Source of the DNA: Acidobacteriota bacterium | Lineage (GTDB): Bacteria > Acidobacteriota > Vicinamibacteria > Marinacidobacterales > Marinacidobacteraceae | DNA: 64,000 nucleotides | NCBI GenBank assembly: GCA_022826825.1 | Contig: JAJDUD010000008.1 | Span: 11,643 to 75,642, forward strand | Reading direction: 5' to 3' | Part shown: positions 18,827 to 34,100 of the stretch, piece by piece | Position numbering within the stretch: the first letter of the stretch is position 1 | Layout: each line of letters opens with the position of its first letter | Position numbers and translations under genes: made by a program | The notes under the pieces: model-generated | Told to the model about the DNA's origin: nothing | Database searches by the model: none | What the model saw: only the letters and a program-made list of their open reading frames with translations

Positions 18827-18919
18827 GTCAATCTATAACACGCACTGCTTGCCCACTAACCTACGAGTAGGCGGACTCCGGCGAACCACAAATGGCACGA
18901 CTCTGACACGGTCGCGCCC

Positions 18920-19333
18920 TTGTTTCCCACGATGAAGAAGCTACCATCGTGGGTGTTACCTACTCTGGTTGTAGGAGTGCTCCTTGTTCTGTCCTCCCTC
19001 TTGCTGGTGCGCCTATGGAGTTCGGTGGTCCTTCGGGCTCCATTTTTCGGTCGTTTGGAACCCGCCACGCTCTCGGCCCTTTCCCTCCAAGTCGTCTTAC
19101 TGTCCGCGTTCATTACGCTGTCGAGCTTCATGGTTGCCATGATCGCGTTTCTTGGCTACCGCCAGATCAAGGAGGCTGCGGTGCAGAAAGCCGTCACCGC
19201 AGCAGTGGATAAGTGCCTGGAGCGAACCGACACTGCCGTAAGTGAACGTCTGAATGAGGTTCTTGGATCCAGGGTAGAAACCGGGCCCTCTCCAGAACCA
19301 GAACTAACCGAAGAGGTCTCCGAGGAGGTCTAG
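18920..19333 (+). CDS. small two-TM membrane protein with an acidic coiled-coil tail; true start may be MKKLPSW at 18932
   Basis: Two hydrophobic helices, then a KEAAVQKAV...EEVSEEV tail. The stop lies 2 nt before the ImmA-like gene start. Confidence 0.4.
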   Translation: MFPTMKKLPSWVLPTLVVGVLLVLSSLLLVRLWSSVVLRAPFFGRLEPATLSALSLQVVLLSAFITLSSFMVAMIAFLGYRQIKEAAVQKAVTAAVDKCLERTDTAVSERLNEVLGSRVETGPSPEPELTEEVSEEV

Positions 19334-19335
19334 GG

Positions 19336-19818
19336 ATGGACAAGGAAGAATTGCTGGAAGTCATCCGGTCCCACCAGAAGGAGGCTCCGGTACCCGTCTT
19401 TAACATTGCGCGAGCGATGGGACTGACGGTACTTCGTGCCCGTTGGCCCGACGAGTGGCAGGACAAGATTTCTGGGCAAATACAACGAATCCCTGAGACA
19501 GATCAATACCGGATTCTTCTGAACGCGGCGCATCCACTAACCCGGCAACGGTTTACCTTGGCCCACGAGATCGCCCACTTCGTTCATCACAAGCATCTGA
19601 TCGGAGATGGCATCACTCACGACGCCCTGTACCGAAGTCCACTGTCCACACCGCTGGAGCGAGAAGCAAACCGGCTCGCCGGGAACATTCTGATGCCTTG
19701 GAGCTTGCTTTGGCCCAAGATGTTTAGAGCAGAAACGGACGTGCGGGAGTTAGCGGCGGAGTTCAAGGTTTCTCCAGTAGCAATGGCCATCCAGACCGGG
19801 ATTCCCTACGAGCCGTGA
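19336..19818 (+). CDS. ImmA/IrrE-family (M78) zinc metallopeptidase
   Basis: HEIAHFVHH HEXXH motif in the ImmA/IrrE context, ...EREANRLAGNILMP..., about 160 aa. Confidence 0.65.
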   Translation: MDKEELLEVIRSHQKEAPVPVFNIARAMGLTVLRARWPDEWQDKISGQIQRIPETDQYRILLNAAHPLTRQRFTLAHEIAHFVHHKHLIGDGITHDALYRSPLSTPLEREANRLAGNILMPWSLLWPKMFRAETDVRELAAEFKVSPVAMAIQTGIPYEP

Positions 19819-20340
19819 CCGCCTGAAGCTAGCCGCGAACTGCCGATTTCGGCACAAAAGCAAATGCGAGACCAGAAGATGTCGGCCTAGAAGGCAGCCT
19901 GCCGGGTTGATGCGATAGGTAGCGAGATCCTCGAACGGAGTCCGCAATGATCCTCTGAAGTCTTGCCCCGACGTCATGCGTGAACTGGCCTGCGGCTACT
20001 TGCTTCGCGCTTTCCACGGTTTGCGGGCTGCCCCTAGTGCCGCATCTAGGACACTTGGCGGATCCGTCGCTGCAGCCGTCAGCAATAACCTGACACCTAG
20101 AGCAAATCAACACTAGTGCTATGCCATCAGCCATTGCGCTCCGCCACCAGAGTCGTCATCACCTACCACCATGGAGAGGATCCCAAGAGAACCCTTCTGA
20201 TTGCGCGTCTCTAGCACGCTGAACGGGAGAAGTCAAACGCGCGACTGTCTAGTCCAGGTGCAGGGCCTCCACAGCGAGGCCTGTATAACGCCAGCGGTAA
20301 ACACCGCACTACGCTTCTTCCGGAAGGCATCAGGATTCTG

Positions 20341-22479
20341 CTATTTCGCTCGGCCGAGAGCGGGCCACAGCGTGACGACGAATCGCTCTTCACGGACCGG
20401 AATGCGCACACGGCCCCGCATTCCGTCGTAAAGCGCGTGTTCCGCGCCGGTGCTGCTCAACAAGACCTCCGGCAGGTCCGCATACACGAGGGCCAGCGCC
20501 CCATCTTCGGTCCCCGTGGGCAGGAGTTGGCCCATAAGCGCTCGCGCCTCTTCCGCGCTGATTACCTCCGGGCTGACCTCGCGGGCCTCGAGATGGAAGC
20601 GGCTTCCCGGGAACTGTTCCAGTTCGGCCACCACCGGGATCCCGGACGCGAGCAGGGGACGGAAGTTGCCCGGCACGGCGGCCACGATCTCGAAACCCGC
20701 ACGGGCGGCCCGCACCGTAGCCACCGTCTGGCCGGGATTCACGAGCGTCCCCGGCCTTACCCGTACGTCCGTCAGCACCCCACCCACCGGCACGATCAAC
20801 TGCCGTTCTTCAAGATCCGTCCTTGCCTGTTCGCTCGCGCCGCGCAGGGCCGCGAGCCCATTCCCCACCGTGGGATCCTCCGGGTTCCGCAACAGCCGCA
20901 CCAATGCATCCTCGTACTCGTGCTCTAGGCGCCGCACCTGTGCGAGTTCCGCGTGGTCGTAGAGCGTGCCGATGACGTCCCCCGGAACGACCTCCGTCTG
21001 GGGAGCGATGTGGATGGCCGCCACCGTGCCCGCCTCATTCGCCACCACAGGCACCCGTCCTTGGCTGTGGACGACCGCCATCCCCTCCGCGTACTCGGTG
21101 GCCGTTCCGAAGATCAGGAACGCCGCAAACGCGAGCAGCAGTGCCGCCATGCCGCCCACGATCCAAGATCCCCACCGCTCGGAAACGTTCAGGATGGCGC
21201 TCGGGCTCTCGGAGCGCCGCTGTTCCGCGATCGCTTCGGCGCGGAACACGGATGAGTCCACTCCGACCTCCCCTTGAAGCCGGTGGTATTCCCGAAGGAC
21301 AGCGAGCGGCGGAGCGAAGTCGCTGGCGAGCCGGCGCGCCGTATCCAACAGTTCCGGTCGGAGATGGTCGTGGGCGTCGGCCGCGTGGCACGCGAGCACC
21401 CCAAACACCGTCCCCGAATGGTCCCGGATGGGAACTGCCATCAGTCCGTGTCCGGCCCCTGGCACGAGATCCAACTCCGGATCGAAGAACACCGCGTCCT
21501 CCACGCGTTCTTCGAGCACCGCCACCCCAGACCGCGCGACGTAGGCGATCATGCCGAGCGCCGCGCTATCCGCGAACTCCTCCTGCTGCACGGCGTGGGG
21601 TCCCAGAAGAACCTCCGCCCAATCGTCGTAGGCGTACACCGTCGCCGTGATGTCCGGCATTCGCCGCTCCGCCTGAGCCGCCAAGTCCCGCAACGCGCTC
21701 TGCGCCGCACGTCTCTGTCCACGACTCGTGGCGTCGTACCACGCGAATGCCGGGAACCCGTCCTCGGTGTCCGGTCTCGGGTGAACGAGTTCGCGAAAGA
21801 CCCGCCGGAAGACAGCATTTTCGAGCGCCGCCACCGCCAGCGGGCCGAGGCGGTCCGGGTCCGGCCACCCACTGCATGCGAAGAAAACCTCGCCGGAACC
21901 GACGATGTCGCTCCAGCGGTCGGACATCACGCCCCCGCTTGCGACGAGAATCGGCCGAAGTCCGGGCAGTCGTCGGACGGTGGACCGCACCGACGCGACA
22001 TCGGGTGCCCGGTCTGGCGCACAGCCCAGCAGCAGGGCTCCCACGCTCTGCGGGTTCTGTACTTCCCGCGCGTGGACGATCTCGATCCCCTGTAGGGCCG
22101 GCGTCGCGCGACAGGGCTCGATCGCCCGTTCGTCATCCACGGCGAGGACCACCGGGACCCGGTTCGCAGCCGCGAGGGGAGAACTCGTCCAATCCTCCAC
22201 CAGCGTGAGAACCAACATCTGCACCGCGTTCTCACCACTGCCGTGCGCTGCACCCAGCCGCAGGTCCGCAACTACGGACCAAGCGCTGCCGTTGCCGGAA
22301 CCGAGACGGGCCGTGATCTCCATTCCTTCCATCGCCCCGTCGCGCACCATCACCGCCTCCGCATCCCGGACACACACCCACACCACGCCGGGACCCAGAC
22401 AACATACCCACGCGGGTAATGAAGCACCACCTGCTACCCGAAGCTGCGCAGGCCCTGAGACCCGGCGCCAGCCCTTCAC
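20341..22479 (-). CDS. fusion protein: N-terminal cytoplasmic region with a pseudo-receiver-like segment and a GAF domain, then a TM helix and a CvaA/LcnD/HlyD-type bacteriocin membrane-fusion domain
   Basis: The C-terminal 320 aa begin SVFRAEAIAEQRR...WIVGGMAALLLAFAAFLIFG, the classic N-terminus of CvaA/LcnD-type membrane fusion proteins, followed by a long periplasmic coiled-coil/beta region. The preceding ~390 aa include a GAF-like block (MIAYVARSGVAVLEERV...GLMAVPIRDHSGTVFGVLACH). 4-bp overlap with the upstream ABC gene. Confidence 0.6.
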   Translation of the reverse strand: MKGWRRVSGPAQLRVAGGASLPAWVCCLGPGVVWVCVRDAEAVMVRDGAMEGMEITARLGSGNGSAWSVVADLRLGAAHGSGENAVQMLVLTLVEDWTSSPLAAANRVPVVLAVDDERAIEPCRATPALQGIEIVHAREVQNPQSVGALLLGCAPDRAPDVASVRSTVRRLPGLRPILVASGGVMSDRWSDIVGSGEVFFACSGWPDPDRLGPLAVAALENAVFRRVFRELVHPRPDTEDGFPAFAWYDATSRGQRRAAQSALRDLAAQAERRMPDITATVYAYDDWAEVLLGPHAVQQEEFADSAALGMIAYVARSGVAVLEERVEDAVFFDPELDLVPGAGHGLMAVPIRDHSGTVFGVLACHAADAHDHLRPELLDTARRLASDFAPPLAVLREYHRLQGEVGVDSSVFRAEAIAEQRRSESPSAILNVSERWGSWIVGGMAALLLAFAAFLIFGTATEYAEGMAVVHSQGRVPVVANEAGTVAAIHIAPQTEVVPGDVIGTLYDHAELAQVRRLEHEYEDALVRLLRNPEDPTVGNGLAALRGASEQARTDLEERQLIVPVGGVLTDVRVRPGTLVNPGQTVATVRAARAGFEIVAAVPGNFRPLLASGIPVVAELEQFPGSRFHLEAREVSPEVISAEEARALMGQLLPTGTEDGALALVYADLPEVLLSSTGAEHALYDGMRGRVRIPVREERFVVTLWPALGRAK

Positions 22480-24710
22480 GAATCGTCTCCTGTAGTTCCG
22501 CCCTGCTCAGGCGCCCGTACGAGCGACGCGTATTCACCGTCCAGACTCAGCAGGTCTCCGTGTCTGCCCTCCTCAACGAGATGTCCCTCCTTCAGGACGA
22601 AGATACGGTCCGCGTTGCGGATTGTGTTCAGCCGCTGGGCGATCACGATCCTCGTGCAAGCCAGCCGCGCCAGCCGCGCCTGGATCTTCGCCTCCAGCTT
22701 CGTGTCCAGATTGCTCGTCGCTTCGTCCAGAATCAACACCGGAGGCCCGGTGGCCACCGCCCGCGCCAGCGCCAGACGCTGCATCTGTCCTCCCGAAAGG
22801 AGGAACCCGCCATCGTAGAGCATCGTGTCGTAACCCAGAGGCAGTTTCGCGATGTCATCGTGTATGGAGGCAAGTCGCGCGGCCTCAATCACCTCCGCGA
22901 GCGACATGTCCGGGTTGCCGAGCGCGATGTTCTCGCGAACAGTATCCGCCGCATACCAGTCAGTCTGTGTCACCGTGCCGATCCTGCGACGCACCTCCCG
23001 AAGGTCCAGGGTGGCGAGATCGGTTCCCGAGTACAACACGTGCCCGTTCGTGGGTTCGTAGAGTCCGAGCAACAGTTTCGCCACCGTGGACTTCCCCGCC
23101 CCCGACGGCCCGACGAACGCAACAAATTCCCCCGGGTGGATCGTGAAGGAAACGTCCTGCAAGATGTCCGGGCCCGAATCGCTGTAGCGAAACGTAACGT
23201 GCTGCATCGAGACCGTCCGTGGGTCCACATCCGTCCCAGACCCACGCACCCGACGCTCCGGTTCTGTCTCGATCACGTCCTCAATCCGGTCCACGTAGCT
23301 ACCGAGCAGGTAGATGGACGAAATCGTTCCCACTAGTTTCGACAGCGGTCCCAGGAACCCCATCGCGAAGGCGTTCATCGCCAACATGACCCCAAGGGTC
23401 ATGTGGCCGTCCAGGACGCGCATTGCCCCAACGATGAGAATCAGCATGCCGCCCACGCCCGAGAGCGCACCAGTGATGGCCCCCACGGTCGCGTTGAGAC
23501 GGTTCTGCTCGATCCCGATGTTCAACTCCTTCACGAACAGGTCCGTCCATTTCCGGGCCACCTCGCGCTCCGCGCCAATGGATTTGAGCGCCTCCATTCC
23601 CGAGAGCATCCGCACTTGGTAGCTCCGTGCCTCGGCCTGCCGTTGTATCGACTCCGAAACGAGTTCGCGCAGACGAATTCGCGTCACCGCGAACACCGTG
23701 ACCCGCAGCACGCCGAGCAGCACCACGAGCCCGGCGACCACCACGTCCGTCAGCAGCATCAGGACCAGGTACGACAGCACGAACAGCCCGTCGAGAACCG
23801 CGGAGAATGCCGTTGAGGTCAGCGCACTGCGGATCTGCACATGGCTGTTCATCCGCAGCATCAGGTCACCCGACGAGCGGTTCTGGAGATATGAGAACGG
23901 CAGGTCCATCAGCCGTTCAACGAACGATACGGTCAGCCGGGCGTCAATTCGCGACATCACCTCCACCGCAAGCCGCGAACGTACGAAGGAGAACAGCGTC
24001 GAGAACCCGGCGATCCCGATCAGCGCAATGGCCACCGTCAGCAGCAGTCCCTGGTCTTCCCGAGGTACGATTCGGTCCACTAGTAACGCCGTGAACAGCG
24101 GAATTGCCGTTCCGAGCACCTGGATCGCTGCCGACATCGCGAGAAGCTGCGGCAGGTGTCCGGAGCGCAGGATGACTCGCGCGTAATCACGCAGGACACC
24201 GCGTCCACCGGCCTTTTGCGTCCGGAACGTGTCCGTCGGCCACAACTCCACCGCCACCCCGGTGAAGTTGCGGCTGACCTCCTCCCAGGTCACGATCCGG
24301 CGGCCCGCCGCCGGATCCATTACCCGGATCCCCCGTTTCACGACCCGGTCCAGCACCACGAAGTGGCTAAACCGCCAGTGCAGGATCGCGCCGCGCTGCA
24401 GGCGGCGCAGATCCTCGATCGCATCCACCCGCAGGCCCCGTCCAGCGAGCCCGTGCTGCTCGGCGAGATGCAGCAGATCCGCGGCGTTTGTCCCATCGCG
24501 GCCCGCGGTCAGGTGGTCGCGGAGCGTATGTACGGGAATGTGTTTGCCGTGGAACGCCAGCACGCTCGCCAGGCCGGCGAGACCGCACTCCGTCGCGCCG
24601 GTCTGCTGGACCACCGGCACGGACCGTGGGCGACGGAGCGACCCGATCCCCGTGACCCGCGGTAGCGAGCCCAGGAACGACGGACGCGAGGGCTCAGCCA
24701 TCGGTGTCAC
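22476..24710 (-). CDS. lanT: peptidase-C39-domain ABC transporter (double-glycine leader-cleaving peptide exporter, LanT/CvaB-like)
   Basis: N-terminal C39 domain with catalytic Cys (QTGATECGLAGLASVLAFHG), a six-TM ABC exporter domain, Walker A GPSGAGKST, signature LSGGQMQR and Walker B ILDEATS. Confidence 0.85.
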   Translation of the reverse strand: MTPMAEPSRPSFLGSLPRVTGIGSLRRPRSVPVVQQTGATECGLAGLASVLAFHGKHIPVHTLRDHLTAGRDGTNAADLLHLAEQHGLAGRGLRVDAIEDLRRLQRGAILHWRFSHFVVLDRVVKRGIRVMDPAAGRRIVTWEEVSRNFTGVAVELWPTDTFRTQKAGGRGVLRDYARVILRSGHLPQLLAMSAAIQVLGTAIPLFTALLVDRIVPREDQGLLLTVAIALIGIAGFSTLFSFVRSRLAVEVMSRIDARLTVSFVERLMDLPFSYLQNRSSGDLMLRMNSHVQIRSALTSTAFSAVLDGLFVLSYLVLMLLTDVVVAGLVVLLGVLRVTVFAVTRIRLRELVSESIQRQAEARSYQVRMLSGMEALKSIGAEREVARKWTDLFVKELNIGIEQNRLNATVGAITGALSGVGGMLILIVGAMRVLDGHMTLGVMLAMNAFAMGFLGPLSKLVGTISSIYLLGSYVDRIEDVIETEPERRVRGSGTDVDPRTVSMQHVTFRYSDSGPDILQDVSFTIHPGEFVAFVGPSGAGKSTVAKLLLGLYEPTNGHVLYSGTDLATLDLREVRRRIGTVTQTDWYAADTVRENIALGNPDMSLAEVIEAARLASIHDDIAKLPLGYDTMLYDGGFLLSGGQMQRLALARAVATGPPVLILDEATSNLDTKLEAKIQARLARLACTRIVIAQRLNTIRNADRIFVLKEGHLVEEGRHGDLLSLDGEYASLVRAPEQGGTTGDDS

Positions 24711-24740
24711 CTGTCGTCTTCCGGATCGGAGCGTCGGCGA

Positions 24741-25688
24741 TCACTCTTCGAGAGATCCGGAACAGTCGAGAGCTAGCTCACCTTCGGCCAGTTGCGGAAC
24801 GGCCAGCACGCGCACCGGAGTTCCGGCCGGGAGTTCGTCCGAGCACAGGAGCGCCTCAAAGGTGTGCAGGAGCGTGCGAGGATCCAGTTCGGGAGAGGCG
24901 TGTATCACGAACCCGAGCACCGGCTCATGGTCCTCGAAGGTCACGGTGATCGGCGCGCCGGCAGAGAGTCCGATGGTCGCCTCGGGCGGCGCCGCGAAGC
25001 GAACGTGCCATTCGCCCGCTTCGATCGCCACCACGGGCGCCCCCCGCGTGTCGTACATCCCAGGCGAGCCGTACACCTGGTCCACCACGCCGCCTAGCGG
25101 TGCGCGCAGCGTCGCCTTGGCCGCTTCGGCGCGCGCCTGTTCCGCAGCCGTTCGCGCAGCCCCAAGTCGCGCCTCGGCGGACTCCAGACGCGCCCGGGAC
25201 ACCTCCACTTCGGCCTCCACTTCCTCGAGTTGTTCCGTAGAGAACAGCTCGGAGCGTCCCTTGCGCCGCGTGTAACGGCTGGCGGCCTGCTCCATCTCCA
25301 CCTGTGCAACCCGCAGCGACGCCTCCACTTCGGCGACTGCTGCCTGCGCCACTGCAAGAGTCCGGTCCACCGATTCAGAGTCGAACCGCGCTACTGGTTG
25401 GCCCTCCTTTACCTCGTCCCCCGGCTGTACGAACCGCTCCAGTAACCGGGCGTCAAACGGCGCCGGCACAACAATCCGCCGCTGCCGTACCACGACCCCG
25501 ACATGACCGTAGTTCGCGGGAAGCAGGCCCGGGACTGGCCTACCCACACTCACTCGTCGCTGCGACCCGGATGGCACCGGACCCGGACGCCGCCGTTCCG
25601 GTTCGCTGCCGTCGCCACAACCGACCCAGGCAGCGAAGGCGACCAATCCCGTCGCCAGAAACGCGCCATGTGCTGCTCTGTAGCTCAC
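24741..25688 (-). CDS. HlyD/RND-type periplasmic adaptor lipoprotein
   Basis: GTG start gives a signal with lipobox AAWVGCG. Coiled-coil hairpin, then ATLRAPLGGVVD, a typical adaptor beta-barrel motif. The start overlaps the lanB stop by 4 bp. Confidence 0.6.
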   Translation of the reverse strand: MSYRAAHGAFLATGLVAFAAWVGCGDGSEPERRRPGPVPSGSQRRVSVGRPVPGLLPANYGHVGVVVRQRRIVVPAPFDARLLERFVQPGDEVKEGQPVARFDSESVDRTLAVAQAAVAEVEASLRVAQVEMEQAASRYTRRKGRSELFSTEQLEEVEAEVEVSRARLESAEARLGAARTAAEQARAEAAKATLRAPLGGVVDQVYGSPGMYDTRGAPVVAIEAGEWHVRFAAPPEATIGLSAGAPITVTFEDHEPVLGFVIHASPELDPRTLLHTFEALLCSDELPAGTPVRVLAVPQLAEGELALDCSGSLEE

Positions 25689-28600
25689 CGTTTCGCGCGC
25701 GCCACCAACGAACGATAGGTCCGGCTCAGGAAATCGTAAAGCACCAACTCGTGCGCTCGCGCCGACATGGGAAACAGCCGGTTCGCGTGCATGTGGGTCA
25801 GGGTTTGCAGCAGTTCTTCGAGTGGGCATTCGAGGTCACCAGACTCCGCCAAGTCCCGGAACTGTCGGACTACCTCCTTGGTGTCTTCGGACCGCTGCTG
25901 CAGGACGGCATCGAATCCGGCGAATCGGGAGTCATCGTCCGGGTATCCGGTAACCGCCGCTTGGATATCCCGGCGCTCCGCCCGCAGCCGTCTCGCTAGG
26001 CGCCGCCGTACACTGGGGCCCACTCCGAACTCCTGTCCGAACGACTCCCGCGCCCCGGCAACAACCTGGTTTCTTTCTCCGTAGTCCAGTCCGAAGTCTG
26101 CAAGCAACCGGTCAAAACCCATCGCCACTGCCTTCCACCGGAGGACTTCATCCTCCACCCCGTCGAGCACTCCGACGACCTGGAGCGCCGCCACACTGTC
26201 CGCCCGAAACCACGCTTCTGCCAGTTCGATCCCCCGCCCCCCGCCATAGCGTTCGACCTCGCGCACGTAGGTGTCGAGGCTCACGCGATGGACGGCACCG
26301 GTGGCCAAGAACGGCTGGAGGAGCGCCGACATCCGTTCTTCCAGCGCCCGACGAGCATCCGGCCCGCCTCGAAACCGGACGCGCAAATGGTGTTCCGGGT
26401 CTCCGTACCGGATGAAAAACCACGGCTCACCCGTCGCAGTGGCTCCGTGGAGCGCTGCCAGCGGCGCGACGACCTCGCGGAGCAGCCGATCCGCCGTGCC
26501 AGCGGCAGCGTAGAGCTTGTAGTAGAGCCACTCGTCTCCCGGGATGAAGGCCCGGGAAGCGATTGGTGCCGTCACGTTCCGCTGCTTTACGCCGTCTTCC
26601 CTGACCGAGGGCGCGGCCCGCTGCCTGCGCACGAGCGGAAGGATGAACTCGTTCCGGTAAGTCCCCTCGGGGCCGCTAACGCAGCCTTCCAGATCCTCAG
26701 CGAGCGTCTCCTCTAGAACCAGGGTGGGTCGGCGCGCCCCATGATCCGCCAGCACCGCCACGCACATCGGGTTGTCCAGATCCAGCAGCAGACGGTTCTC
26801 CCCATCGACGAGACGAACGAAACGCGGAAGCTTCAGCTCCCGAACCAGGGCCAACAGTGCGTCCTCACGGGCGGCGGGCTTCTTCGCCTTCGCAATGGCT
26901 TTGTACTCCGGACGATTGCGTCCCACCATCCAGCGGGCAAGCGCGTAAATGGCACGACCCCGGGTCACTCGCGGCAGGAACGGAAGTCCGTTCAGCACCC
27001 CCCAGTTCCAGCTGAACCCCGGCGCCGTCCCGTCGTTCTGGAGCGCGCATAGAAACCGATACATCCCGGAACTACGTCGATAGTTGTGGGCTGAGGTAAG
27101 GCGTGGGCGCACGATCCTGCCGTCCTGACGCGAGCGCAGCCGAAAACTGCTACCCTCCAGACTCAGCAGCAGATCGTCCACGGTCAGCCGCTTCGGACCG
27201 GTGAGCCGCGAGTTACCGCTACAACTCAACTCGATGTCGCGGACATGAGGTCGTCGCACGACATTGCCGACTCTACCCTCCGGTGTGTGCACGATTTCGG
27301 CATAGACCACCCCGGGTTCCAGCGCCTCCTCATCTCGAAGGTGGCCGCGCACCCGCTCGAGCAACACGGGGTCGAGATCGCAGAACCTTCCCAGCAACCG
27401 GCCACCCGACGGGCCGAAGCCGCCGTGATAGAGGATCCGATATGCGCCGCTCTGCACGGCCTCCTCAGAGGCAGCCACTAGATCAAAGTGGAGTGCCACG
27501 GCCGCTGGCAGAGGGCTCTGAACCGAGGTCGCGAGGCGTGTGAGCAGGTCATCGTCCAGTTCGAGACTCGCTGGGGCTTCACCCCGGAGGTCCAGGAGGC
27601 GCTCCATCAGCGCGTCCGGCACGCCCTGCTGAGGGCTTTTTCCGCGGTTGCCCTCTGCCCCGATGTTGAGGCCGGCAAGGAGCGGCGATCCTGACTGACG
27701 TGGTCGCAGATCCGGACCAGGCACACCGAGTCCCCGTTCCGGATCGAAAACCTCTGCTAGCGGAACCTCGCGTGTCTCGTACCGCTCCCGGAAGCGGCTC
27801 TTGAGGTCACGCAACGGATCCGGTAACCGCGTCATCAGGCGGTGTAACGTGTCGGCACCGCGAAGCACCTCGTCGACGACCTCCTCGGCGAGTTGCAACT
27901 CTTCGGTTTCCTTGAACATGTCCACCTGGAGGAGCCGCTCGGTTTTCTTCTGACCGAGAGGCCCGGTCCACACCGCGTTCACCGCCGCGTACGCCTCGGG
28001 TGGTGCCGCCACTCCATGCTCGTCGAGCTGGTCGAGCGCTTCGCGTAGCTGCCGGACCGGAGTGGCTGACTCGGACAGCGCCTCGCTCGCAGCGAGAGCC
28101 TGAAGGATCTGGTCCAGCGGATCGCTACCTACGACCGCAGGCACCAGCTCCGGCACGAGCACCTGCGACTCGATGAGGTCGTCAAGGTACTCGTCGATGT
28201 CGTCCGAGTTCACATCCGCATCAGTGATGGCGAGCGTCAACGCGGCATGTAATCCAGCCAGCGGCATCGCTTTCGCGGACCGCCGCTCCAAGGCGGCCGA
28301 AAGCGCTTCGTCATTCTCGAGAAACGCCATCTCGTGCCGGTTTTCGGGACCGCGCTGTCGCGCTTCCACATACTGGTACCCGCCCGCAATGGCCGCGATC
28401 GTGTCGTTGGGGCGGTAACGGAGATTCTTCCGGACTCCTTGTTGCCTCAGGAGGCTACCGACCAACTTGGCCACCTGCGCTTGGTCAAGTGCTGAGCGAC
28501 GCCGGTAACGGTCGCGCCCAGCAAGTCTCAGGCGCGTCAGTTCGCCTACGTTCCCCACGGATACACCGGCGAACAGGCCGAATGGCGTGCATCGGTCGCA

Positions 28601-28930
28601 CATCCGCGCGAAGTACTGGACGAGCGCTCGTTCCATCCGCGCCCGCCGCCGCGTAGGTGCTTGGTCGCCCAACCCGGACAGGCGCTCCGCGAGCACTGGA
28701 CTGGCGACCCGCAGCGCATCGGCCGCGTGCGGCAACGCCAGAGCCTCCACGAGAGTTCGCCGCAGCCGGTTCCTCGTGCCTGCTCCGTCACCCGCCGCAG
28801 GGGTTGCAGTTTGGCCACTGGCTCCCCAAACAGCAAAAGTGGCGGTGGGCAGTAAGGGCGTCCGTAGCACGAAAAACCCGGATGGCCGATAGCTGTCGGC
28901 GAAACCCGATGCCCCCGTCTCAGCTGTCAC
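25685..28930 (-). CDS. lanB: class I lanthipeptide dehydratase LanB (glutamylation plus elimination domains)
   Basis: 1081 aa. N-terminal SGFFVLRTPLLP is the canonical LanB opening. The C-terminal WFFIRYGDPEHHLRVRFRG matches the SpaB_C elimination domain. Confidence 0.85.
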   Translation of the reverse strand: MTAETGASGFADSYRPSGFFVLRTPLLPTATFAVWGASGQTATPAAGDGAGTRNRLRRTLVEALALPHAADALRVASPVLAERLSGLGDQAPTRRRARMERALVQYFARMCDRCTPFGLFAGVSVGNVGELTRLRLAGRDRYRRRSALDQAQVAKLVGSLLRQQGVRKNLRYRPNDTIAAIAGGYQYVEARQRGPENRHEMAFLENDEALSAALERRSAKAMPLAGLHAALTLAITDADVNSDDIDEYLDDLIESQVLVPELVPAVVGSDPLDQILQALAASEALSESATPVRQLREALDQLDEHGVAAPPEAYAAVNAVWTGPLGQKKTERLLQVDMFKETEELQLAEEVVDEVLRGADTLHRLMTRLPDPLRDLKSRFRERYETREVPLAEVFDPERGLGVPGPDLRPRQSGSPLLAGLNIGAEGNRGKSPQQGVPDALMERLLDLRGEAPASLELDDDLLTRLATSVQSPLPAAVALHFDLVAASEEAVQSGAYRILYHGGFGPSGGRLLGRFCDLDPVLLERVRGHLRDEEALEPGVVYAEIVHTPEGRVGNVVRRPHVRDIELSCSGNSRLTGPKRLTVDDLLLSLEGSSFRLRSRQDGRIVRPRLTSAHNYRRSSGMYRFLCALQNDGTAPGFSWNWGVLNGLPFLPRVTRGRAIYALARWMVGRNRPEYKAIAKAKKPAAREDALLALVRELKLPRFVRLVDGENRLLLDLDNPMCVAVLADHGARRPTLVLEETLAEDLEGCVSGPEGTYRNEFILPLVRRQRAAPSVREDGVKQRNVTAPIASRAFIPGDEWLYYKLYAAAGTADRLLREVVAPLAALHGATATGEPWFFIRYGDPEHHLRVRFRGGPDARRALEERMSALLQPFLATGAVHRVSLDTYVREVERYGGGRGIELAEAWFRADSVAALQVVGVLDGVEDEVLRWKAVAMGFDRLLADFGLDYGERNQVVAGARESFGQEFGVGPSVRRRLARRLRAERRDIQAAVTGYPDDDSRFAGFDAVLQQRSEDTKEVVRQFRDLAESGDLECPLEELLQTLTHMHANRLFPMSARAHELVLYDFLSRTYRSLVARAKR

Positions 28931-28963
28931 CTTGGCCGCGGTTTCACAAACTCGGAACTAGAC

Positions 28964-30214
28964 TCAGGATAAGAGCAACAGGCGGTCCCACTTCGGCTCG
29001 ATGTCCGTCGTCCCGGTCAGTAGTGCTAGCCCAACGCCCGCCGAGCCAGTGAGAAACGACCCATCATCTACCCAGCCTTGGCGATTCCCGCCTACATCAC
29101 CCCACATGCGGTAACCACCCACTCCCTGGTTTGGTCGCCACCAGTTCAGGGTCGCATCAACCCAACCCCTTGCCGCGTTTGCGAACTCCGGTTCATTGTC
29201 AGTGCGTGCAAGTCGATAGAAGATCTGGGCGTTTCCCGCCGCCCCATGGCAGAGTCCGGCGTCTCGAATCCAGGCCTCGCCGGGTCGGACGCGAGCGCAG
29301 GCAAGAGCCAAGGTCCGCGCCCACTCCACGCCCTCCTGATCCCCAATTGCTTTCGCCGCCTCGAATGCCACCGCTGACGCACCAAGTGGGCCGTAGCACC
29401 ATGCCATTCGGCGACTGACCTCGGGTTCAACGCCCGGCGCAATCCATGATGGCAACGACGCTTCGGTTGGGTCTGACTTGATTGCCCTGAGCCATCGCAA
29501 ACTATCCCGAAGCAAGGGCTCGGCTCGATCCGGCTCGACCCCGAAGGAACATAGCTTCCCCAGAAGCCCACACACCCCTGGCACGCCGTGTGCTACACCC
29601 AAGTTGTAGTAGCCAGCGGGTGCCAGTTTGCGCTGCCAAGCGGGCAGAAAGTCCGCCACCGTGAACCATGTCGTCCCTTCCTTAGTCTCGACCGCCATGC
29701 GCTCAAGCGCCTCAAGAACCAAGCCAAGGCCGCGGACTGCGGAGTCGCGAGGTAGTCGTTCTACGAAATAGACGCCGACACCAACCACGCCGCTGATCAG
29801 GTCGTAGACCCGCTGGTCCGACTGCCGTGCCAAGGCTTCTGCCGCTAACCGGTCCACATGGGTTCCCACGGCATCATCCTCAGCGTCCAAATGAGTCGTA
29901 AGCCAGCCTGGACCCGCCCAGCCACCGTACAGACCCAACTGGGTGGACCTTTGGATTCGATCAAGGTCCGCATCAATCAGCGTTGAGCATGCGTTGGAGT
30001 CATCTTGAAACACCTCCGCCATGTCGGCGTAGGCATGGAAGAGAGCGGCAAGCCCACCGGGGCGACGACGGAATCCGAAGGGTACATTGGATTCTGGTTC
30101 GACCGGTCGCCGCGCCATATTGACAAGCGCTTCCCCTATACCTTTCACAATCAACCTTGCGTTTGCTTTCGATCCAGTGGGCGAGAACGTCTCGCCGGTA
30201 GGCCGTTGGGTCAT
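28964..30214 (-). CDS. lanC: lanthionine cyclase LanC
   Basis: 416 aa carrying the three LanC zinc-ligand motifs GVAHGVPG, WCYGPLG and GLCHGAAGN. Confidence 0.85.
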   Translation of the reverse strand: MTQRPTGETFSPTGSKANARLIVKGIGEALVNMARRPVEPESNVPFGFRRRPGGLAALFHAYADMAEVFQDDSNACSTLIDADLDRIQRSTQLGLYGGWAGPGWLTTHLDAEDDAVGTHVDRLAAEALARQSDQRVYDLISGVVGVGVYFVERLPRDSAVRGLGLVLEALERMAVETKEGTTWFTVADFLPAWQRKLAPAGYYNLGVAHGVPGVCGLLGKLCSFGVEPDRAEPLLRDSLRWLRAIKSDPTEASLPSWIAPGVEPEVSRRMAWCYGPLGASAVAFEAAKAIGDQEGVEWARTLALACARVRPGEAWIRDAGLCHGAAGNAQIFYRLARTDNEPEFANAARGWVDATLNWWRPNQGVGGYRMWGDVGGNRQGWVDDGSFLTGSAGVGLALLTGTTDIEPKWDRLLLLS

Positions 30215-30689
30215 GTTCTTTGACGGCTGTATTGTTCCCGTTAACCTGAAGGACCGGTTTGACTGGCCGCGCTCTCCGGCCGATCAGGCTCAGTCACACG
30301 GCACATCGAATACAAGGTTCAGCTACGCACACCAAGAGAGTCACGAGCGCAGGGTCGGCGACCGCTGCCGGGCCAGCTACGAGCGTAGAACAAACGTAAT
30401 CCCAGCGGTTTATCGGTGTCCGGAGCAAGAGTAGCGATTCAGCGAAGAACACGCACGGTCACTCCGGTTACCGGCGTACGTGTCACCTTAAGGGCGCGCA
30501 CAAGTTCATTCGCGCCTACTACCCGTAGGTAAGTGTGAGCGCACGTGGTGCTTTGCCCGTATCGCTTGTCTCCTCGTAGCCTGCCCGTGGCCTGTTGCTC
30601 TCGGATTCACCTCGTTGACCAGAACTGGATAGTCAAGCGAGCGCCGACAAGACATCAACGCGCTAAACAGCTCTGCCAGGAACCCCCGG

Positions 30690-31028
30690 TCAGCAACCTT
30701 GGTTGTTTTCCGAGTCGCAAAGACCACAGCCAGTGCCACACGAGTAACCGCATGTTGCATCGCATGTGGCATTGCACGACGCTTGACCACAGTTCGTGTC
30801 GCAGGTGGCGGTAGGGCAATCACAAGTACCCTGGCACGCCGAGACGTTGTCACAAGTATCCCCCACGACGGTCTGGGGCTCGACCCTACAGTCACCGATG
30901 CCATAGGTACATCGATCAGTATTTCGTGGTTGAGTTGGGAGGGGGTCATCGCCACCAGCGACACCGGCTAGCCGATCTTGGCTGAGCGATACGAGATTAC
31001 GTTTCTTCAGACGTAGTTTCTTCTTCAT
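30690..31028 (-). CDS. lanA: lanthipeptide precursor LanA: double-glycine leader plus an 86-aa Cys/Thr/Ser-rich core
   Basis: Internal ATG gives MKKKLRLKKRNLVSLSQDRLAGVAGG followed by DDPLPTQPRNTDRCTYGIGDCRV...CGTGCGLCDSENNQGC. The leader fits LSxx(E)LxxVxGG. The core has 15 Cys and 16 Ser/Thr, with recurring TCD/ATC units. Local GC is lower than the genome background. Confidence 0.7.
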   Translation of the reverse strand: MKKKLRLKKRNLVSLSQDRLAGVAGGDDPLPTQPRNTDRCTYGIGDCRVEPQTVVGDTCDNVSACQGTCDCPTATCDTNCGQASCNATCDATCGYSCGTGCGLCDSENNQGC

Positions 31029-31068
31029 GGTGCTGCACCTCAGGCAGCGTGGATGGTCGATTGGAGTG

Positions 31069-31113
31069 TCCCGGAAGGTGGGATCCGAGATGGACCACAC
31101 CTTCCGGGAAGGT
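31069..31113 (-). promoter_or_regulatory. inverted repeat (11-bp arms, 19-nt spacer) plus an overlapping direct copy, in the 100-bp gap upstream of lanA
   Basis: CCCGGAAGGTG...CACCTTCCGGGAAGGTG sits between the TonB-receptor stop (31132) and the lanA start (31028), with no T-run after it on the transcribed strand. Candidate operator or 5'-UTR structure. Confidence 0.35.
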
Positions 31114-31131
31114 GAACTAACAGCCCCGCGA

Positions 31132-34100
31132 TCAGAACGTGAACTTGGTCATGAACTGGAGCGTGCGGGGGAACCCGCTGCTGCACTGGATCTGACCGAA
31201 GTTGCTGTTCCCAACGACGGTGCGGGGGCCGCACCAGTTGGGCGAGTTGAAGAGGTTCAGCATCTCGAAGCGCAGGTTCAGGTTCACATCGCTGAAGATC
31301 GTCGTCGTCTTGTCGAGAGCGACATCCCAAGTGTGGAGCACTGGCGTGCGAACGGTGTCCGTGGTGTGCGGACCGGAGCCAAGCACGAAACCATCCGTCT
31401 GGGCGACATTGCCCGGGCTCAGGTAGTTCAGGTGGCTGCCAGACGGGTTGCCGCCGCCGGACACGCCGCCGCCGCTCGGGCGCTGGTGATCGAAGCCGTA
31501 CGCAGCGAGCGGATTAGAACTCTGCTTCAGAGTCAGCGGGAACCCGCTCCGCAGGATGGTCTGCGTGGAGAGCGACCAGCCGCTGAAGATGGGGTTGTCA
31601 CCTGGTATCCGGTAGTTGAGAGCGATGTTGAACTGGTGCGGAACGTGAATCCGGGATGGACCGTAATCGGCGTCCAACACCGAACACTTCCCGGTAGCAC
31701 AATCATCGGGAGTGTTGAAGATGGTGCTTTCCTCATCCGCGAGTCGGGTATTGCTCTCGTAAATGTTGTCGTTGTGGATCGCCATCGTGTAGTTGATCCG
31801 GGCGCCCCAACTGTCGCGGAACCGCTTTTCGAACTCGATCCGGGCCGAGTTGTACAGCGACTTGCCGGCGCTGACGTGGCGGGCCAGTACGTTCCGGAAG
31901 TGGGGGAACGGCCGGAGCAACTGCCCCAGCGGAAGCGTCTCGGCGCCCGCGAACGAACCGAACCGGGAGTCGCCGTAGAACGGGTTGGGATACTGATCGT
32001 TCAAACGGTCGCCAAGCGCCACGTACTGATCCGCGAGCTGGTTGATGTTGATCACCGAGTTGTTCGTGCCCCCGATCGGGAGGTCTGCGCCGGCACTGCC
32101 TACATAACCGACCTTGAACGCAAGGTCGCGGCCGATGTCGCGCTGGATGTCGAGCGACCACTTGTGGATGTAGGGGGAGGCCCGGTGTTGTTCGTTGAAA
32201 TAGACGTTGCCGCCGATGTTCTGGAACCGGCCTTTCGCGTTGCCGACCGGGTTGTCGATGCCGTTCGGGAACGGGTTCGCAACGGTGGCCTCCGGCGGGG
32301 TCCTTCCGTCGAGGCTGGTAGCGATTGAAGTCACCGCGGTATAGCCGAACGTCCCGACATCGGACGCGCCCACGCCGCTTGGAATCGCGTAGGGCGCCCA
32401 GAAGGTCGCATACCCGCCCCGAATCACTGTCTCCGGGTTCAACGTATAGGCAAAGCCGATCCGGGGACCGATCTTGATTCCAGGGGGGTCCCACTGGTGG
32501 GTTGGGGCGCCGTCGATTCCGGCATACATAAGGCCGCCGCGGAGCGGGAAGCCGGGGAGCGAGCCTTCGATGGCCGGATCGAGCCCAACCTGGATCGGGA
32601 ATGGGTTCGTGCGGTCCCAACCGACGGCGAAACCGTTGTCATCCTCCATCAGGCCGCTCTCGTGCTCAAGGCGAAGCCCCAGGTTCAACACCAGGTTTGC
32701 GCTGGGGCGCCAGTCGTCCTGGACGAAGACGCCGTAGTAGTTGATGAAGACGTCGGCGGGTTCCGCGACGGTCGCCTGTCCGCCGGACGGAATGCCCAGC
32801 AACATGTCGGCGAGCGCATTGCCGGAGGCCGCGTCCGGGGAATCCGGGTTGGGGCCGCGGGTGAAGCTTCGGTCGAAGCTCAACTGGAGCCCATTGTTGA
32901 AGCGGACCGAGTGGAGTCCCATGCGCCGGAACTGAACCCCGTACTTGACGGTGTGGTTCCCGAGGAACTGCGAGAAGGTGCCGTTGACCTCCCGCGAAGT
33001 CCATTGCACATCGGTGTTGGACCACGAACCGTGCGTCGACCCGCCGTCGCCATACTCCTCGATACTGACGCTCGGGAACTGGCCGTCATAGCCTTCCTGG
33101 CCATAGATGGAATTGATGAAGCCGCCCTGGAATCCCAGACCGCTGAACGCGCTCTGGTCGAACACCGGGTTCGAGTTCGAGTCGTTGAAGAAGGTCTGGC
33201 CGTAGCGGAGAGTCAGTACCGACGTGTCGCCGGTGATGAAGGTGTTGTTGAAGGCAACGGCGTGAACATCGCGCCCCAGCGAGGCGGCGCCGATGCCGTA
33301 GGCGGGGTGGGTCTCCGCGTTCAGAAGATCCTTGTAGTGGCCGAACGCCGGCTCCTCCGAGGTGTAGTAAAGGTAGGTCAGGGACGACTGCCAGGCCTCC
33401 GAGAAGGTATGGCTCAGGTTTCCGGTGAGTTGCCGGGCCTGCGTGCGCTGAATCCCGGAGGCTGCGATATCGCCGCCCGGACCCAGTTCGGTGAGGACCC
33501 TCGCCAACGAGGAACCCGCCGGATCGATCATGTGGGCCGGAATGACGTTGCCCGGGAAAGGACGCCGATTGCCGTTCGCGTCGAGATCGAACGGGTTGTA
33601 GATCGTGACTCCGCTCGCGGAGAAGTCGCCAGCAGCTTCAGCAGGAGTCGGCAGCGTGATCGTTACGTTCGAGGCCTGGTCGTCGTTGTAACCCTCGCCA
33701 GAAACCCAGAAGAACGTGCGGTCGCGGAAGATCGGGCCTCCGAATGACCCGCCGAGCAGGATGTAGGGGCGTTCGCTGATGTCCGAATCGGACAGCTTGC
33801 CAGCAGCCACATCCTGGGCTGTGTGGTAGTAGTACTCCCGCAGGAACTGACCGACCTTGCTGGGCCGGAATTGGTGAAGGGCGCTGCCCGCCCAGGCGTT
33901 GGTCCCGGTGCGGTGAATCACGTTGAAGACGCCGCCGCCGGTGCGGCCCATCTCGGCGTCGTAGGTGTTGATCTGGACCTTCATCTCCTGCACCGCCTCG
34001 AACACCGGGATGATGACCGTGCGGTTCCGGAGGTCGGTCGTGGAGACGCCGTCCACGGTGTAGTTGTTGCCGCGGAGCGGCCCACCACCGAGCGAGAGGA

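What the first reader, a model, noticed from the sequence alone, without database searches (positions are those of the whole stretch)
20341..31028. Class I lanthipeptide biosynthetic gene cluster in a high-GC diderm-like genome
On the minus strand, close-packed or overlapping (ATGA/GTGA junctions), lie lanA, lanC, lanB, a periplasmic-adaptor lipoprotein, a C39-peptidase ABC exporter and a GAF/HlyD fusion. The LanB call rests on the SGFFVLRTPLLP N-terminus and the C-terminal WFFIRYGDPEHHLRVRF elimination domain. The LanC call rests on the GxAHG, WCYG and CHG zinc motifs. No LanP subtilisin, LanFEG/LanI immunity genes or LanKR regulators are recognisable, so leader removal is presumably by the C39 domain and regulation or immunity may use novel components. 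The host appears to be a Gemmatimonadota- or Acidobacteriota-like organism (inferred from TonB-dependent receptors with a CarbopepD_reg domain, a GWxTD protein and 70% GC). In the annotator's reading, lanthipeptide chemistry from such hosts is largely uncharted.
Basis: partly seen in the sequence, partly recalled or inferred. Interest (0 to 1): 0.9.

Follow-up and report, generated by a model that had tools for sequence, protein, structure and literature searches.

The report
Acidobacterial class I lanthipeptide cluster, Cys-rich precursor
This is a real and intact gene cluster for a lanthipeptide (a ribosomal peptide stapled by sulfur bridges); the enzymes are ordinary, but the very long, acidic precursor built from repeated x-x-Thr-Cys units and the clade-specific export and outer-membrane genes beside it match no characterised lanthipeptide system I could find.

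Summary
On the minus strand, 20341-31028 holds lanA (112 aa), lanC, a full-length lanB, a lipoprotein membrane-fusion protein (MFP), a C39-peptidase ABC exporter (PCAT), and a 712-aa protein that is a GAF/HlyD fusion with a receiver-like domain as well.

The leader is the Bacteroidota-type class I leader (LxLxKx5L...GG). The 86-aa core is acidic, with 15 Cys and 16 Ser/Thr, largely as xx(T/S)C tetrads.

About 40 related precursors exist, all from metagenomes or MAGs. The named ones are marine or sponge Acidobacteriota. Cys and Ser+Thr counts match within one in 29 of 34, which suggests up to about 15 thioether rings.

The six-gene order is conserved in five related loci (one of them truncated before the 712-aa gene), and all genes are under purifying selection. 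An Oar-type outer-membrane barrel gene sits directly upstream of lanA in most of them. The MFP pair and this barrel are absent from about 75 Bacteroidota LanB loci.

In this window the cluster lies in a 65% GC island within a 70% GC genome, so it was probably acquired horizontally.

Verdict: a genuine class I lanthipeptide cluster and a new variant of a known kind. The chemistry, ring topology and role of the accessory genes are inferred, not shown.

The parts
30690..31028 (-). lanA precursor gene (112 aa; stop codon included)
   Evidence: Translation. An SD-like GAGGT lies 7-8 nt before the ATG. Weak match to NCBIfam lant_leader_L1a (17.7 bits, cut-off 22). About 40 homologous precursors were found with a profile. 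It is the only such ORF in the window.
30951..31028 (-). Leader peptide, 26 aa, MKKKLRLKKRNLVSLSQDRLAGVAGG, predicted to be cleaved after Gly26
   Evidence: It fits the LxLxKx5L...GG motif described for Bacteroidetes class I LanAs (PMC7268733). Hydrophobic residues sit at -4, -7, -12 and -15, read from the sequence. 24 of 34 family members hit NF038153.
30693..30950 (-). Core peptide, 86 aa, with 15 Cys and 16 Ser/Thr; pI 4.05, net charge about -9
   Evidence: Monoisotopic mass is 8797.37 Da unmodified and 8509.20 Da after 16 dehydrations. The C-terminal CGTGCGLCxSENNxxC motif is shared with P0051 and P0059.
28964..30214 (-). lanC cyclase (416 aa)
   Evidence: PF05147, E 4.6e-31. His209, Cys273 and Cys322/His323 are present. 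Best solved relative is 8BYK, E 4e-14, with these motifs aligned.
25685..28930 (-). lanB dehydratase (1081 aa from the GTG), with both glutamylation and elimination domains
   Evidence: PF04738 3.3e-144, PF14028 3.8e-61 and TIGR03891 2.9e-59. Solved relatives are MadB (9G04, 4.8e-47), MibB (5EHK, 9.6e-46) and NisB (1e-24). Homology in relatives begins at residues 2-12, which supports the long start.
24741..25688 (-). Lipoprotein membrane-fusion protein (about 315 aa from a GTG overlapping the lanB stop)
   Evidence: HlyD_3 4.4e-8 and RND_mfp 2e-19. A hydrophobic stretch followed by Cys is conserved in five orthologues. In L005 a stop codon closes the upstream frame.
22476..24710 (-). Peptidase-containing ABC exporter (PCAT, 744 aa)
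   Evidence: C39, ABC_membrane and ABC_tran domains. Full-length match to PCAT1 (4RY2, E 5e-101) and ComA. QQTGATEC42G and SH116FVV are present. 84-93% identical to orthologues; dN/dS 0.07 against L003-L005.
20341..22479 (-). Sensor-type MFP (712 aa). Domains: N-terminal beta domain (1-100), receiver-like domain (110-230), GAF (250-400), TM helix (436-458), periplasmic HlyD/MFP (460-700).
31132..34743 (-). Oar-type outer-membrane barrel gene directly upstream of lanA (1203-aa ORF; called as 1170 aa from 34644). Probable but unproven member of the unit.
   Evidence: CarboxypepD_reg 6e-18 and OMP_b-brl_4 1e-137. No Plug match. A gene of the same architecture lies directly upstream of lanA in L003, L004, L006 and L084/85.
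31073..31114 (.). 17-nt perfect palindrome CACCTTCCCGGAAGGTG (31098-31114) plus one extra half-site (31073-31080), between the OMP stop and the lanA start
   Evidence: Read. It could be the OMP terminator hairpin or an operator. It is not conserved upstream of lanA in L003-L006.
17300..35000 (.). Low-GC tract (0.52-0.68) in a 0.70 GC background. It holds the cluster, the OMP gene, a DUF2914 gene and a small-ORF/Peptidase_M78 pair.
   Evidence: Cluster GC is 0.646, matching the 0.64-0.67 of relatives' genomes, where the cluster and its flanks do not differ. No tRNA gene is present in the window.

Best explanation
This is a functional class I lanthipeptide operon of the Bacteroidota-type lineage, carried by marine Acidobacteriota and probably acquired here by horizontal transfer.

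Proposed mechanism:
1. LanA is made with a 26-aa basic leader and an 86-aa acidic core.
2. LanB, guided by the leader, glutamylates Ser/Thr using Glu-tRNA(Glu) and eliminates glutamate to give Dha/Dhb.
3. The zinc enzyme LanC adds Cys thiols to these residues. Because Cys (15) and Ser/Thr (16) are nearly equimolar and mostly arranged as xx(T/S)C tetrads, the product is predicted to be densely cross-linked, with up to about 15 (methyl)lanthionine rings.
4. The C39 domain of the ABC exporter cuts after Gly-Gly26 during export.
5. Two different membrane-fusion proteins (one lipoprotein, one TM-anchored) are proposed to couple the exporter to an outer-membrane exit. The TM-anchored one carries a cytoplasmic receiver-like plus GAF module that could gate export in response to a small ligand.

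Shown here: the gene identities, motifs, folds, synteny, purifying selection and the precursor family.

Inferred: the extent of dehydration and cyclisation, the ring topology, hetero-MFP assembly, GAF gating, the role of the adjacent Oar-type barrel, and the bioactivity.
For: - Enzyme HMM hits far above cut-offs, and the catalytic and zinc motifs are present.
- The leader fits the published LxLxKx5L-GG class I motif. 24 of 34 relatives hit lant_leader_L1a.
- The PCAT is full length, resembles PCAT1, and has Cys42/His116.
- The order lanA-lanC-lanB-MFP-PCAT-sensor MFP is identical in L003, L004, L005 and L083. L006 shows it up to the PCAT, where its contig ends.
- dN/dS is 0.07-0.21 for the genes where dS could be estimated.
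- Start and stop codons overlap as GTGA at two junctions.
- In 34 precursors, Cys (9-17) and Ser+Thr counts agree within 1 in 29 cases (r = 0.89), and a Cys spacing of 4 dominates.
- The MFP, GAF and receiver folds are supported.
Against: - There is no experimental product.
- The 1:1 Cys:Ser/Thr ratio follows partly from the (T/S)C repeat unit itself, so it is weaker evidence for full cyclisation than it looks.
- A Thr immediately followed by Cys cannot make a ring with that Cys, so the topology is unknown. LanB and LanC may not process all sites.
- The window's LanA scores below the NCBIfam leader cut-off (17.7 against 22 bits).
- No sigma-70-like promoter was found.
- No TolC-type gene lies in the cluster.
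- LanB catalytic residues were not checked one by one.
Confidence: 0.8

Rival explanations
1. The mature peptide keeps many free or disulfide-bonded Cys and acts as a metal-binding or signalling peptide rather than a fully thioether-bridged antibiotic. It is exported by the PCAT and MFPs and taken up again (or sensed) through the adjacent TonB-dependent-type barrel, much as chalkophore clusters pair a peptide with a TonB-dependent receptor.
For: - The core is strongly acidic (pI 4.05, charge about -9) and nearly free of Lys/Arg across the family, unlike cationic lantibiotics.
- It has a regular CxxxC spacing. Three relatives weakly hit the Cxxx-repeat rSAM-target model.
- An Oar-type barrel gene is directly upstream of lanA in five contexts.
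- Many relatives start the core with HPH.
Against: - Full LanB and LanC genes are conserved under purifying selection next to every visible precursor except the orphan in L086.
- Cys and Ser/Thr are equimolar, as expected if each thiol has a dehydro partner.
- No metal-handling gene is present in the cluster.
- The Plug domain and TonB box needed for TonB-dependent uptake were not detected in the window's barrel.
Confidence: 0.13
2. The cluster is a silent or decaying passenger on a horizontally acquired island and makes nothing in this host.
For: - It lies in a low-GC island beside a Peptidase_M78 module.
- One public assembly of the same contig has a 1-nt indel in the lipoprotein MFP gene.
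- The lanA-lanC spacer is unusually long at 475 bp, against about 200 bp in L083.
- No promoter match was found.
Against: - All six ORFs are intact in the window and in the identical Logan contig.
- The window's MFP is colinear with its orthologues.
- All catalytic motifs are present.
- The promoter scan only covers sigma-70 consensus sites.
Confidence: 0.05
3. The Oar-type barrel next to lanA is there by coincidence, because these genomes carry many such genes. Outer-membrane passage uses a TolC-type channel encoded elsewhere.
For: - The window's and L004's barrels are only about 29% identical to the orthologous group, and to each other.
- L083 shows no barrel gene end within 0.4 kb upstream of lanA.
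- MFP-ABC systems normally use TolC, which is established knowledge of tripartite pumps.
Against: - Same-strand adjacency to lanA is seen in the window, L003, L004, L006 and L084/85. The L003, L005, L006 and L084 barrels are 73-80% identical, as conserved as the other cluster genes.
- None was found at about 75 Bacteroidota LanB loci.
Confidence: 0.4

Closest known systems
Bacteroidota-type class I lanthipeptide clusters (pinensin group; LanAs with LxLxKx5L...GG leaders and a C39 exporter; Walker et al. 2020, PMC7268733)
   Same: The leader motif, the GG cleavage site, a clustered C39 ABC exporter, and stand-alone LanB plus LanC. Outside the acidobacterial clade (and one lone 58% LanB in an alphaproteobacterial MAG), the nearest LanB relatives are mostly Bacteroidota, at 24-33% identity.
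   Different: LanB is only about 30% identical. The core is much longer (86 aa) and built from xx(T/S)C tetrads with 15 Cys. The lipoprotein MFP, the GAF-bearing MFP and the Oar-type barrel are absent from all about 75 Bacteroidota-type loci fetched. The host clade is Acidobacteriota.
Nisin (NisBC), NAI-107 (MibB) and maddinglicin (MadB) class I systems
   Same: A two-domain Glu-tRNA-dependent dehydratase fold family and a zinc LanC. Solved relatives are MadB 4.8e-47, MibB 9.6e-46 and NisB 1e-24.
   Different: There is no FNLD-type leader box, and no LanP, LanFEG, LanI or LanRK genes. The core is anionic rather than cationic, with roughly three times as many potential rings as nisin's five (nisin figure from established knowledge).
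PCAT/AMS exporters (PCAT1 4RY2, ComA 8HF4)
   Same: Full-length colinear match with the catalytic Cys/His of the C39 domain.
   Different: It works in a diderm host with two dedicated MFPs. NHLP-type equivalog models score below their cut-offs (TIGR03796: 542 against 853 bits).
Oar, the TonB-dependent transporter needed for PopC secretion in Myxococcus xanthus (PMC6434023)
   Same: A CarboxypepD_reg N-terminal extension followed by a large TBDT-type barrel. It is a precedent for outward transport through such a barrel.
   Different: No Plug domain or TonB box was detected here. The cargo would be a peptide of about 8.5 kDa. The functional link rests on gene adjacency only.
Acidobacterial aci (class III) and tha/the (class II plus GMC-oxidase thiazole) RiPP clusters (PMC13083261, 2026)
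   Same: Lanthipeptide-type RiPPs from uncultivated marine Acidobacteriota. ThaA also has a Cys-rich core.
   Different: A different synthetase class (LanKC or LanM against LanB plus LanC), different leaders, and no GMC oxidase here.
Cys-Xaa-Xaa-Xaa repeat radical-SAM target peptides (TIGR04117 / PF27846)
   Same: CxxxC periodicity. Weak hits for some relatives.
   Different: No radical SAM enzyme is in the cluster. The hits reflect the repeat only, and the window's LanA does not hit.

Membership tests
Class I lanthipeptide biosynthetic gene cluster | Full-length LanB with an N-terminal glutamylation domain and a C-terminal elimination domain | tested here: met
   PF04738 E 3.3e-144 (profile positions 3-649 of 649) and PF14028 E 3.8e-61 (1-255 of 255). 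TIGR03891. MadB, MibB and NisB matches.
Class I lanthipeptide biosynthetic gene cluster | Stand-alone LanC with Cys-Cys-His zinc ligands and the active-site His | tested here: met
   PF05147 E 4.6e-31. GVAH209G, WC273YG and C322H323G, aligned to the same motifs in 8BYK.
Class I lanthipeptide biosynthetic gene cluster | An adjacent precursor with a leader and a Ser/Thr- plus Cys-containing core | tested here: met
   lanA lies 475 bp upstream of lanC. The core has 15 Cys and 16 Ser/Thr. Homologous precursors sit next to LanC and LanB in L003-L006, L083 and L084.
Class I lanthipeptide biosynthetic gene cluster | Dehydrated residues and (methyl)lanthionine bridges in the product | not testable with these tools
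   Needs expression and mass spectrometry or NMR.
Class I lanthipeptide biosynthetic gene cluster | Individual LanB catalytic residues, as mapped in NisB | not tested
   Only domain-level HMM matches and the conserved R-x-TPFGLF and WFFIRY...HLR(V/L)RF blocks were seen in the alignments.
NCBIfam NF038153 lant_leader_L1a (class I lanthipeptide leader) | Score at or above the curated cut-off of 22 bits | tested here: not met
   The window's LanA scores 17.7 bits, E 0.0029. 24 of 34 relatives match at E <= 0.01, best 8.7e-7. The published LxLxKx5L...GG motif is matched exactly by eye.
Peptidase-containing ABC transporter (PCAT/AMS) | An N-terminal C39 domain with catalytic Cys and His, a six-helix ABC exporter TMD, and an NBD with Walker A, signature and Walker B motifs | tested here: met
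   PF03412, PF00664 and PF00005. Cys42, His116, GPSGAGKST534, LSGGQ638 and ILDEAT660. PCAT1 full-length match at 5e-101.
NHLP/NHLM bacteriocin export system (TIGR03794/03796/03797) | Equivalog scores above cut-off, and two ABC subunits plus one HlyD | tested here: not met
   541.8 against 853.3 bits, 448.8 against 709.4 bits, and 25.8 against 156.2 bits. Here there is one ABC protein and two MFPs.
Membrane-fusion (HlyD/periplasmic adaptor) proteins | Lipoyl/barrel-sandwich and alpha-hairpin adaptor fold with an N-terminal membrane anchor | tested here: met
   Both proteins hit HlyD_3 and HlyD_D23. The 712-aa model matches EmrA, MacA and MexA at E 1e-13. There is a TM helix at 436-458 in one protein and a lipobox Cys in the other.
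GAF domain | GAF fold | tested here: met
Oar-subclass TonB-dependent transporter | CarboxypepD_reg N-terminal extension plus a 22-strand TBDT barrel | tested here: met
   PF13620 6e-18, PF25183 1e-137 and PF00593 2e-4. The architecture is as described in PMC6434023.
Oar-subclass TonB-dependent transporter | [quoted passage not shown] | tested here: inconclusive
   No PF07715 match in residues 1-310 even at E <= 10. No structure model was made.
Cxxx-repeat radical SAM target (TIGR04117 / PF27846) | Model match and an associated radical SAM maturase | tested here: not met
   The window's LanA has no hit. Three relatives hit weakly. No rSAM gene is in any of the clusters.

The most novel reading that the evidence does not exclude
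The cluster makes a new lanthipeptide scaffold. It would be an anionic peptide of about 8.5 kDa in which a run of xx(T/S)C tetrads is converted into a continuous ladder of a dozen or more overlapping or abutting methyllanthionine rings, far more than in any characterised lanthipeptide. Release from a diderm cell would use a dedicated machine: a PCAT, a hetero-pair of MFPs (one gated by a cytoplasmic receiver-like/GAF sensor) and an Oar-type barrel acting as the outer-membrane exit or re-uptake gate.
Probability: 0.3. Interest if true: 0.75.

Novelty: new variant of a known kind. Interest (0 to 1): 0.55.

Why it matters
In the held paper library I found no characterised class I lanthipeptide from Acidobacteriota. 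The first acidobacterial RiPP modifications of any class were reported only in 2026.

This family has at least 40 precursors with 9-17 Cys in a four-residue register. It offers a directly testable case of how far LanB and LanC can go in iterative dehydration and cyclisation. It could also yield an unusually rigid, protease-resistant, acidic scaffold.

The conserved accessory set gives concrete candidates for an open question: how diderm bacteria regulate lanthipeptide export and move the peptide across the outer membrane.

Tried and rejected
- A search of the 5.8-billion-protein set with the single LanA sequence found nothing. An exhaustive phmmer search found one hit, P0088. Only a profile of six precursors opened up the family.
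- The 475-nt lanA-lanC spacer has no significant RNA structure (z -0.79). It holds no second precursor and no Rfam family.
- No sigma-70-type promoter was found in 19800-31400. The terminator-like sites found are not more frequent than in shuffled sequence.
- No tRNA gene marks the island.
- PF27846 and PF28317, which appear as precomputed hits on relatives, are not in the local Pfam copy. PF27846 turned out to be the Cxxx-repeat rSAM-target family, hit weakly through the repeat alone.
- A Pfam scan of the 712-aa protein's N-terminus gave nothing even at E 10. The domains were resolved only by structure prediction and fold search.
- The afdb50 fold library was unavailable.
- The MadB paper did not list NisB catalytic residue numbers, so a residue-by-residue LanB check was dropped.
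- The FAD oxidoreductase (DAO) gene beyond the OMP, and the M78/small-ORF pair, were considered as tailoring or regulatory genes. They were rejected as core members because they are absent from all related loci.
- The host phylum could not be fixed independently of the cluster.
Full report
OBSERVATION

Pfam and NCBIfam scans gave the following:
- The 1081-aa ORF (25685-28930) hits Lant_dehydr_N at E 3.3e-144 and Lant_dehydr_C at E 3.8e-61.
- The 416-aa ORF (28964-30214) hits LANC_like at E 4.6e-31.
- The 744-aa ORF (22476-24710) hits Peptidase_C39, ABC_membrane and ABC_tran.
- Both the 24741-25829 ORF and the 712-aa ORF (20341-22479) carry HlyD-type adaptor domains.

In LanB, SGFFVLRTPLLP starts at residue 17 and WFFIRYGDPEHHLRVRF at residue 837. 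In LanC, GVAHG (His209), WCYG (Cys273) and CHG (Cys322/His323) are present.

lanA is the ATG-initiated 112-codon ORF 30690-31028. Two junctions are GTGA start/stop overlaps, lanB/MFP and PCAT/712-aa gene.

The window is identical to a Logan contig. It differs by one 1-nt indel, inside the lipoprotein MFP gene, from an ENA metagenome scaffold (KELL22-1, SAMN22237336).

THE ENZYMES AND EXPORTER

LanB's nearest solved relatives are MadB (E 4.8e-47), MibB (9.6e-46) and NisB (1e-24). LanC aligns to the LanC-like structure 8BYK with the His and Cys/Cys-His motifs in register.

The exporter matches PCAT1 and ComA over its full length. It has the Gln-Cys42 and His116 motifs of an active C39 peptidase, plus intact Walker A, signature and Walker B motifs.

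The lipoprotein MFP most likely starts at the GTG at 25688. Five orthologues conserve a hydrophobic stretch ending in Cys. In L005 a stop codon closes the frame just upstream.

THE PRECURSOR AND ITS FAMILY

The leader MKKKLRLKKRNLVSLSQDRLAGVAGG fits exactly the LxLxKx5L...GG motif that Walker et al. described for Bacteroidetes class I LanAs with clustered C39 exporters (PMC7268733). It has hydrophobic residues at -4, -7, -12 and -15 from the GG site. It scores just under the NCBIfam lant_leader_L1a cut-off (17.7 against 22 bits).

The 86-aa core has 15 Cys and 16 Ser/Thr, pI 4.05 and a net charge of about -9.

Related precursors sit beside the LanB relatives in L003-L006. A profile of six of them recovered 42 protein clusters from metagenomes. 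Among 34 aligned members:
- 24 hit lant_leader_L1a.
- Cores carry 9-17 Cys, mostly as xx(T/S)C tetrads with a Cys spacing of 4.
- Lys and Arg are almost absent.
- Cys and Ser+Thr counts agree within one in 29 of 34 (r = 0.89).

The window's closest relatives (P0051, P0059) share its C-terminal CGTGCGLCxSENNxxC motif. Many others begin the core with HPH(P)(P)TC. Weak hits of some members to the Cxxx-repeat rSAM-target family reflect only the repeat.

The window holds a single precursor gene.

SYNTENY AND SELECTION

LanB relatives fall into two tiers:
- Four Acidobacteriota MAGs at 62-72% identity, including Ca. Marinacidobacterium (Vicinamibacteria), plus one lone LanB in a Thalassobaculaceae MAG at 58%.
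- Then a drop to 33% or less, mostly Bacteroidota.

The order lanA-lanC-lanB-lipoprotein MFP-PCAT-712-aa MFP is identical in L003, L004, L005 and L083. L006 shows it as far as the PCAT, where its contig ends.

Identity to the window over L003-L006:

| Gene | Identity |
|---|---|
| LanC | 54-64% |
| LanB | 62-72% |
| Lipoprotein MFP | 54-79% |
| 712-aa MFP | 69-80% |
| PCAT | 88-93% |

Against L003-L005, dN/dS is 0.07 for the PCAT and 0.11-0.21 for the other genes where dS could be estimated. Divergence rises towards lanA. This fits an export machine that reads a conserved leader and enzymes that track hypervariable cores.

THE 712-aa PROTEIN

Only 41 homologue clusters exist, all at least 51% identical and about 710 aa long. 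The named ones are from Acidobacteria MAGs, including sponge-derived bins.

AF2 models (pTM 0.57 full length, 0.84 for residues 1-432) and fold searches show five parts:
- a beta-rich N-terminal domain of unassigned family;
- one TM helix;
- a periplasmic adaptor like EmrA, MacA and MexA (E 1e-13).

By my reading of the sequence, the receiver-like domain lacks the usual phospho-acceptor Asp after strand 3 (LLLGC). That point is an inference.

THE OUTER-MEMBRANE GENE

Directly upstream of lanA, on the same strand, lies a CarboxypepD_reg plus OMP_b-brl_4 protein (E 1e-137). This is the architecture of the Oar subclass of TonB-dependent transporters (PMC6434023).

A gene of this architecture also ends 120-350 bp upstream of lanA in L003, L004, L006 and L084/85, and 2.2 kb upstream in L005. 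The L003, L005, L006 and L084 copies are orthologues (73-80% identical). The window's and L004's are different paralogues at about 29%.

This barrel, the lipoprotein MFP and the 712-aa MFP were found at none of the roughly 75 Bacteroidota-type LanB loci fetched.

Oar is required for outward secretion of PopC in Myxococcus. That gives a precedent for an export role, but I detected no Plug domain here. The link therefore remains an adjacency argument.

GENOMIC SETTING

GC falls from 0.70 to 0.52-0.68 between about 17.3 and 35 kb. The cluster's GC of 0.646 equals that of the relatives' genomes, where the cluster and its flanks do not differ. This suggests acquisition from a donor of about 65% GC.

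The lowest-GC part holds a DUF2914 gene and a small-ORF/Peptidase_M78 pair, both absent from relatives. No tRNA gene, Rfam family or sigma-70-type promoter was found.

A perfect 17-nt palindrome lies between the OMP stop and lanA. It is not conserved in relatives.

INTERPRETATION

The best-supported reading is a functional class I lanthipeptide operon of the Bacteroidota-type lineage, adapted in marine Acidobacteriota. LanB dehydrates, LanC cyclises, and the PCAT cleaves after GG26 and exports with two MFPs.

The near-equimolar Cys and Ser/Thr counts argue that most thiols end up in thioether rings, giving up to about 15. That ratio is partly built into the (T/S)C repeat unit, so it is weaker evidence than it looks. 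The ring topology cannot be predicted from sequence.

The main rival reading is that the acidic CxxxC peptide keeps free thiols and works with the TonB-type barrel as a metal-binding or signalling molecule.

COMPARISON AND NOVELTY

The kind of system, a class I lanthipeptide cluster with a GG leader and a PCAT, is known. Any BGC finder would flag it. Three things are not described in the papers I could search:
- the xx(T/S)C-repeat precursor family;
- the paired MFPs with a cytoplasmic receiver-like/GAF module;
- the recurrent Oar-type barrel.

A 2026 paper describes its class III and class II examples as the first experimentally characterised RiPP modifications from Acidobacteriota (PMC13083261). 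I rate this a new variant of a known kind, with interest 0.55.

Noticed in passing
L007:10001-13195 (OY729512.2, Thalassobaculaceae MAG): A lone full-length LanB, 58% identical to the window's. No LanC, PCAT, MFP or Cys-rich precursor lies within 10 kb on either side. It may be a transferred fragment or part of a different pathway.
   Followed up: partly
L084:6954-20309 and L085:5679-19034: A related cluster of the HPH-type core. Gene order is Oar-type barrel, lanA (102 aa), an IS481-family transposase, further small ORFs of 97 and 101 aa that look like extra precursors, two LanC paralogues, then a 1114-aa LanB.
   Followed up: partly
window 24741-25688 compared with L001: The ENA assembly of the same contig carries a single 1-nt indel inside the lipoprotein MFP gene. 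The Logan assembly is identical to the window. The window version is colinear with its orthologues, so it is the intact one.
   Followed up: yes
window 22476-24710: The PCAT is 88-93% identical to its orthologues in L003-L006, while the neighbouring cluster genes are 54-80% identical. Against L003-L005 it has both the lowest dN/dS (0.07) and the lowest dS (0.55-0.87). Divergence rises steadily towards lanA.
   Followed up: partly
window 31073-31114: A perfect 17-nt palindrome, CACCTTCCCGGAAGGTG, plus a third half-site 18 nt away. It lies between the barrel gene stop and the lanA start. It could be a terminator hairpin or an operator, and it is absent upstream of lanA in relatives.
   Followed up: partly
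window 17786-19818: This is the lowest-GC stretch of the window (0.52-0.58). It holds a DUF2914 protein gene and a small ORF followed by a Peptidase_M78 (ImmA/IrrE-type) gene. That pairing is typical of mobile elements, and both are missing from all related loci.
   Followed up: partly
L086:10001-10285 (3.98-Mb contig): An orphan precursor of the same family with no LanB or LanC within 10 kb. It sits next to an IS21 IstB fragment and, on the opposite strand, an Oar-type barrel and a GWxTD/TPR protein.
   Followed up: no
window 30215-30689: The lanA-lanC spacer is 475 bp, against about 130-200 bp in L003 and L083. It contains no recognisable ORF, precursor remnant, significant RNA structure or Rfam match.
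   Followed up: yes
P0046-P0086 (relatives' cores): Many relatives' cores start with His-Pro-His immediately after the GG cleavage site (GG|HPH(P)(P)TCEPTC...). The window's core instead has a 31-residue, Cys-poor N-terminal stretch before the xx(T/S)C tetrads begin.
   Followed up: no
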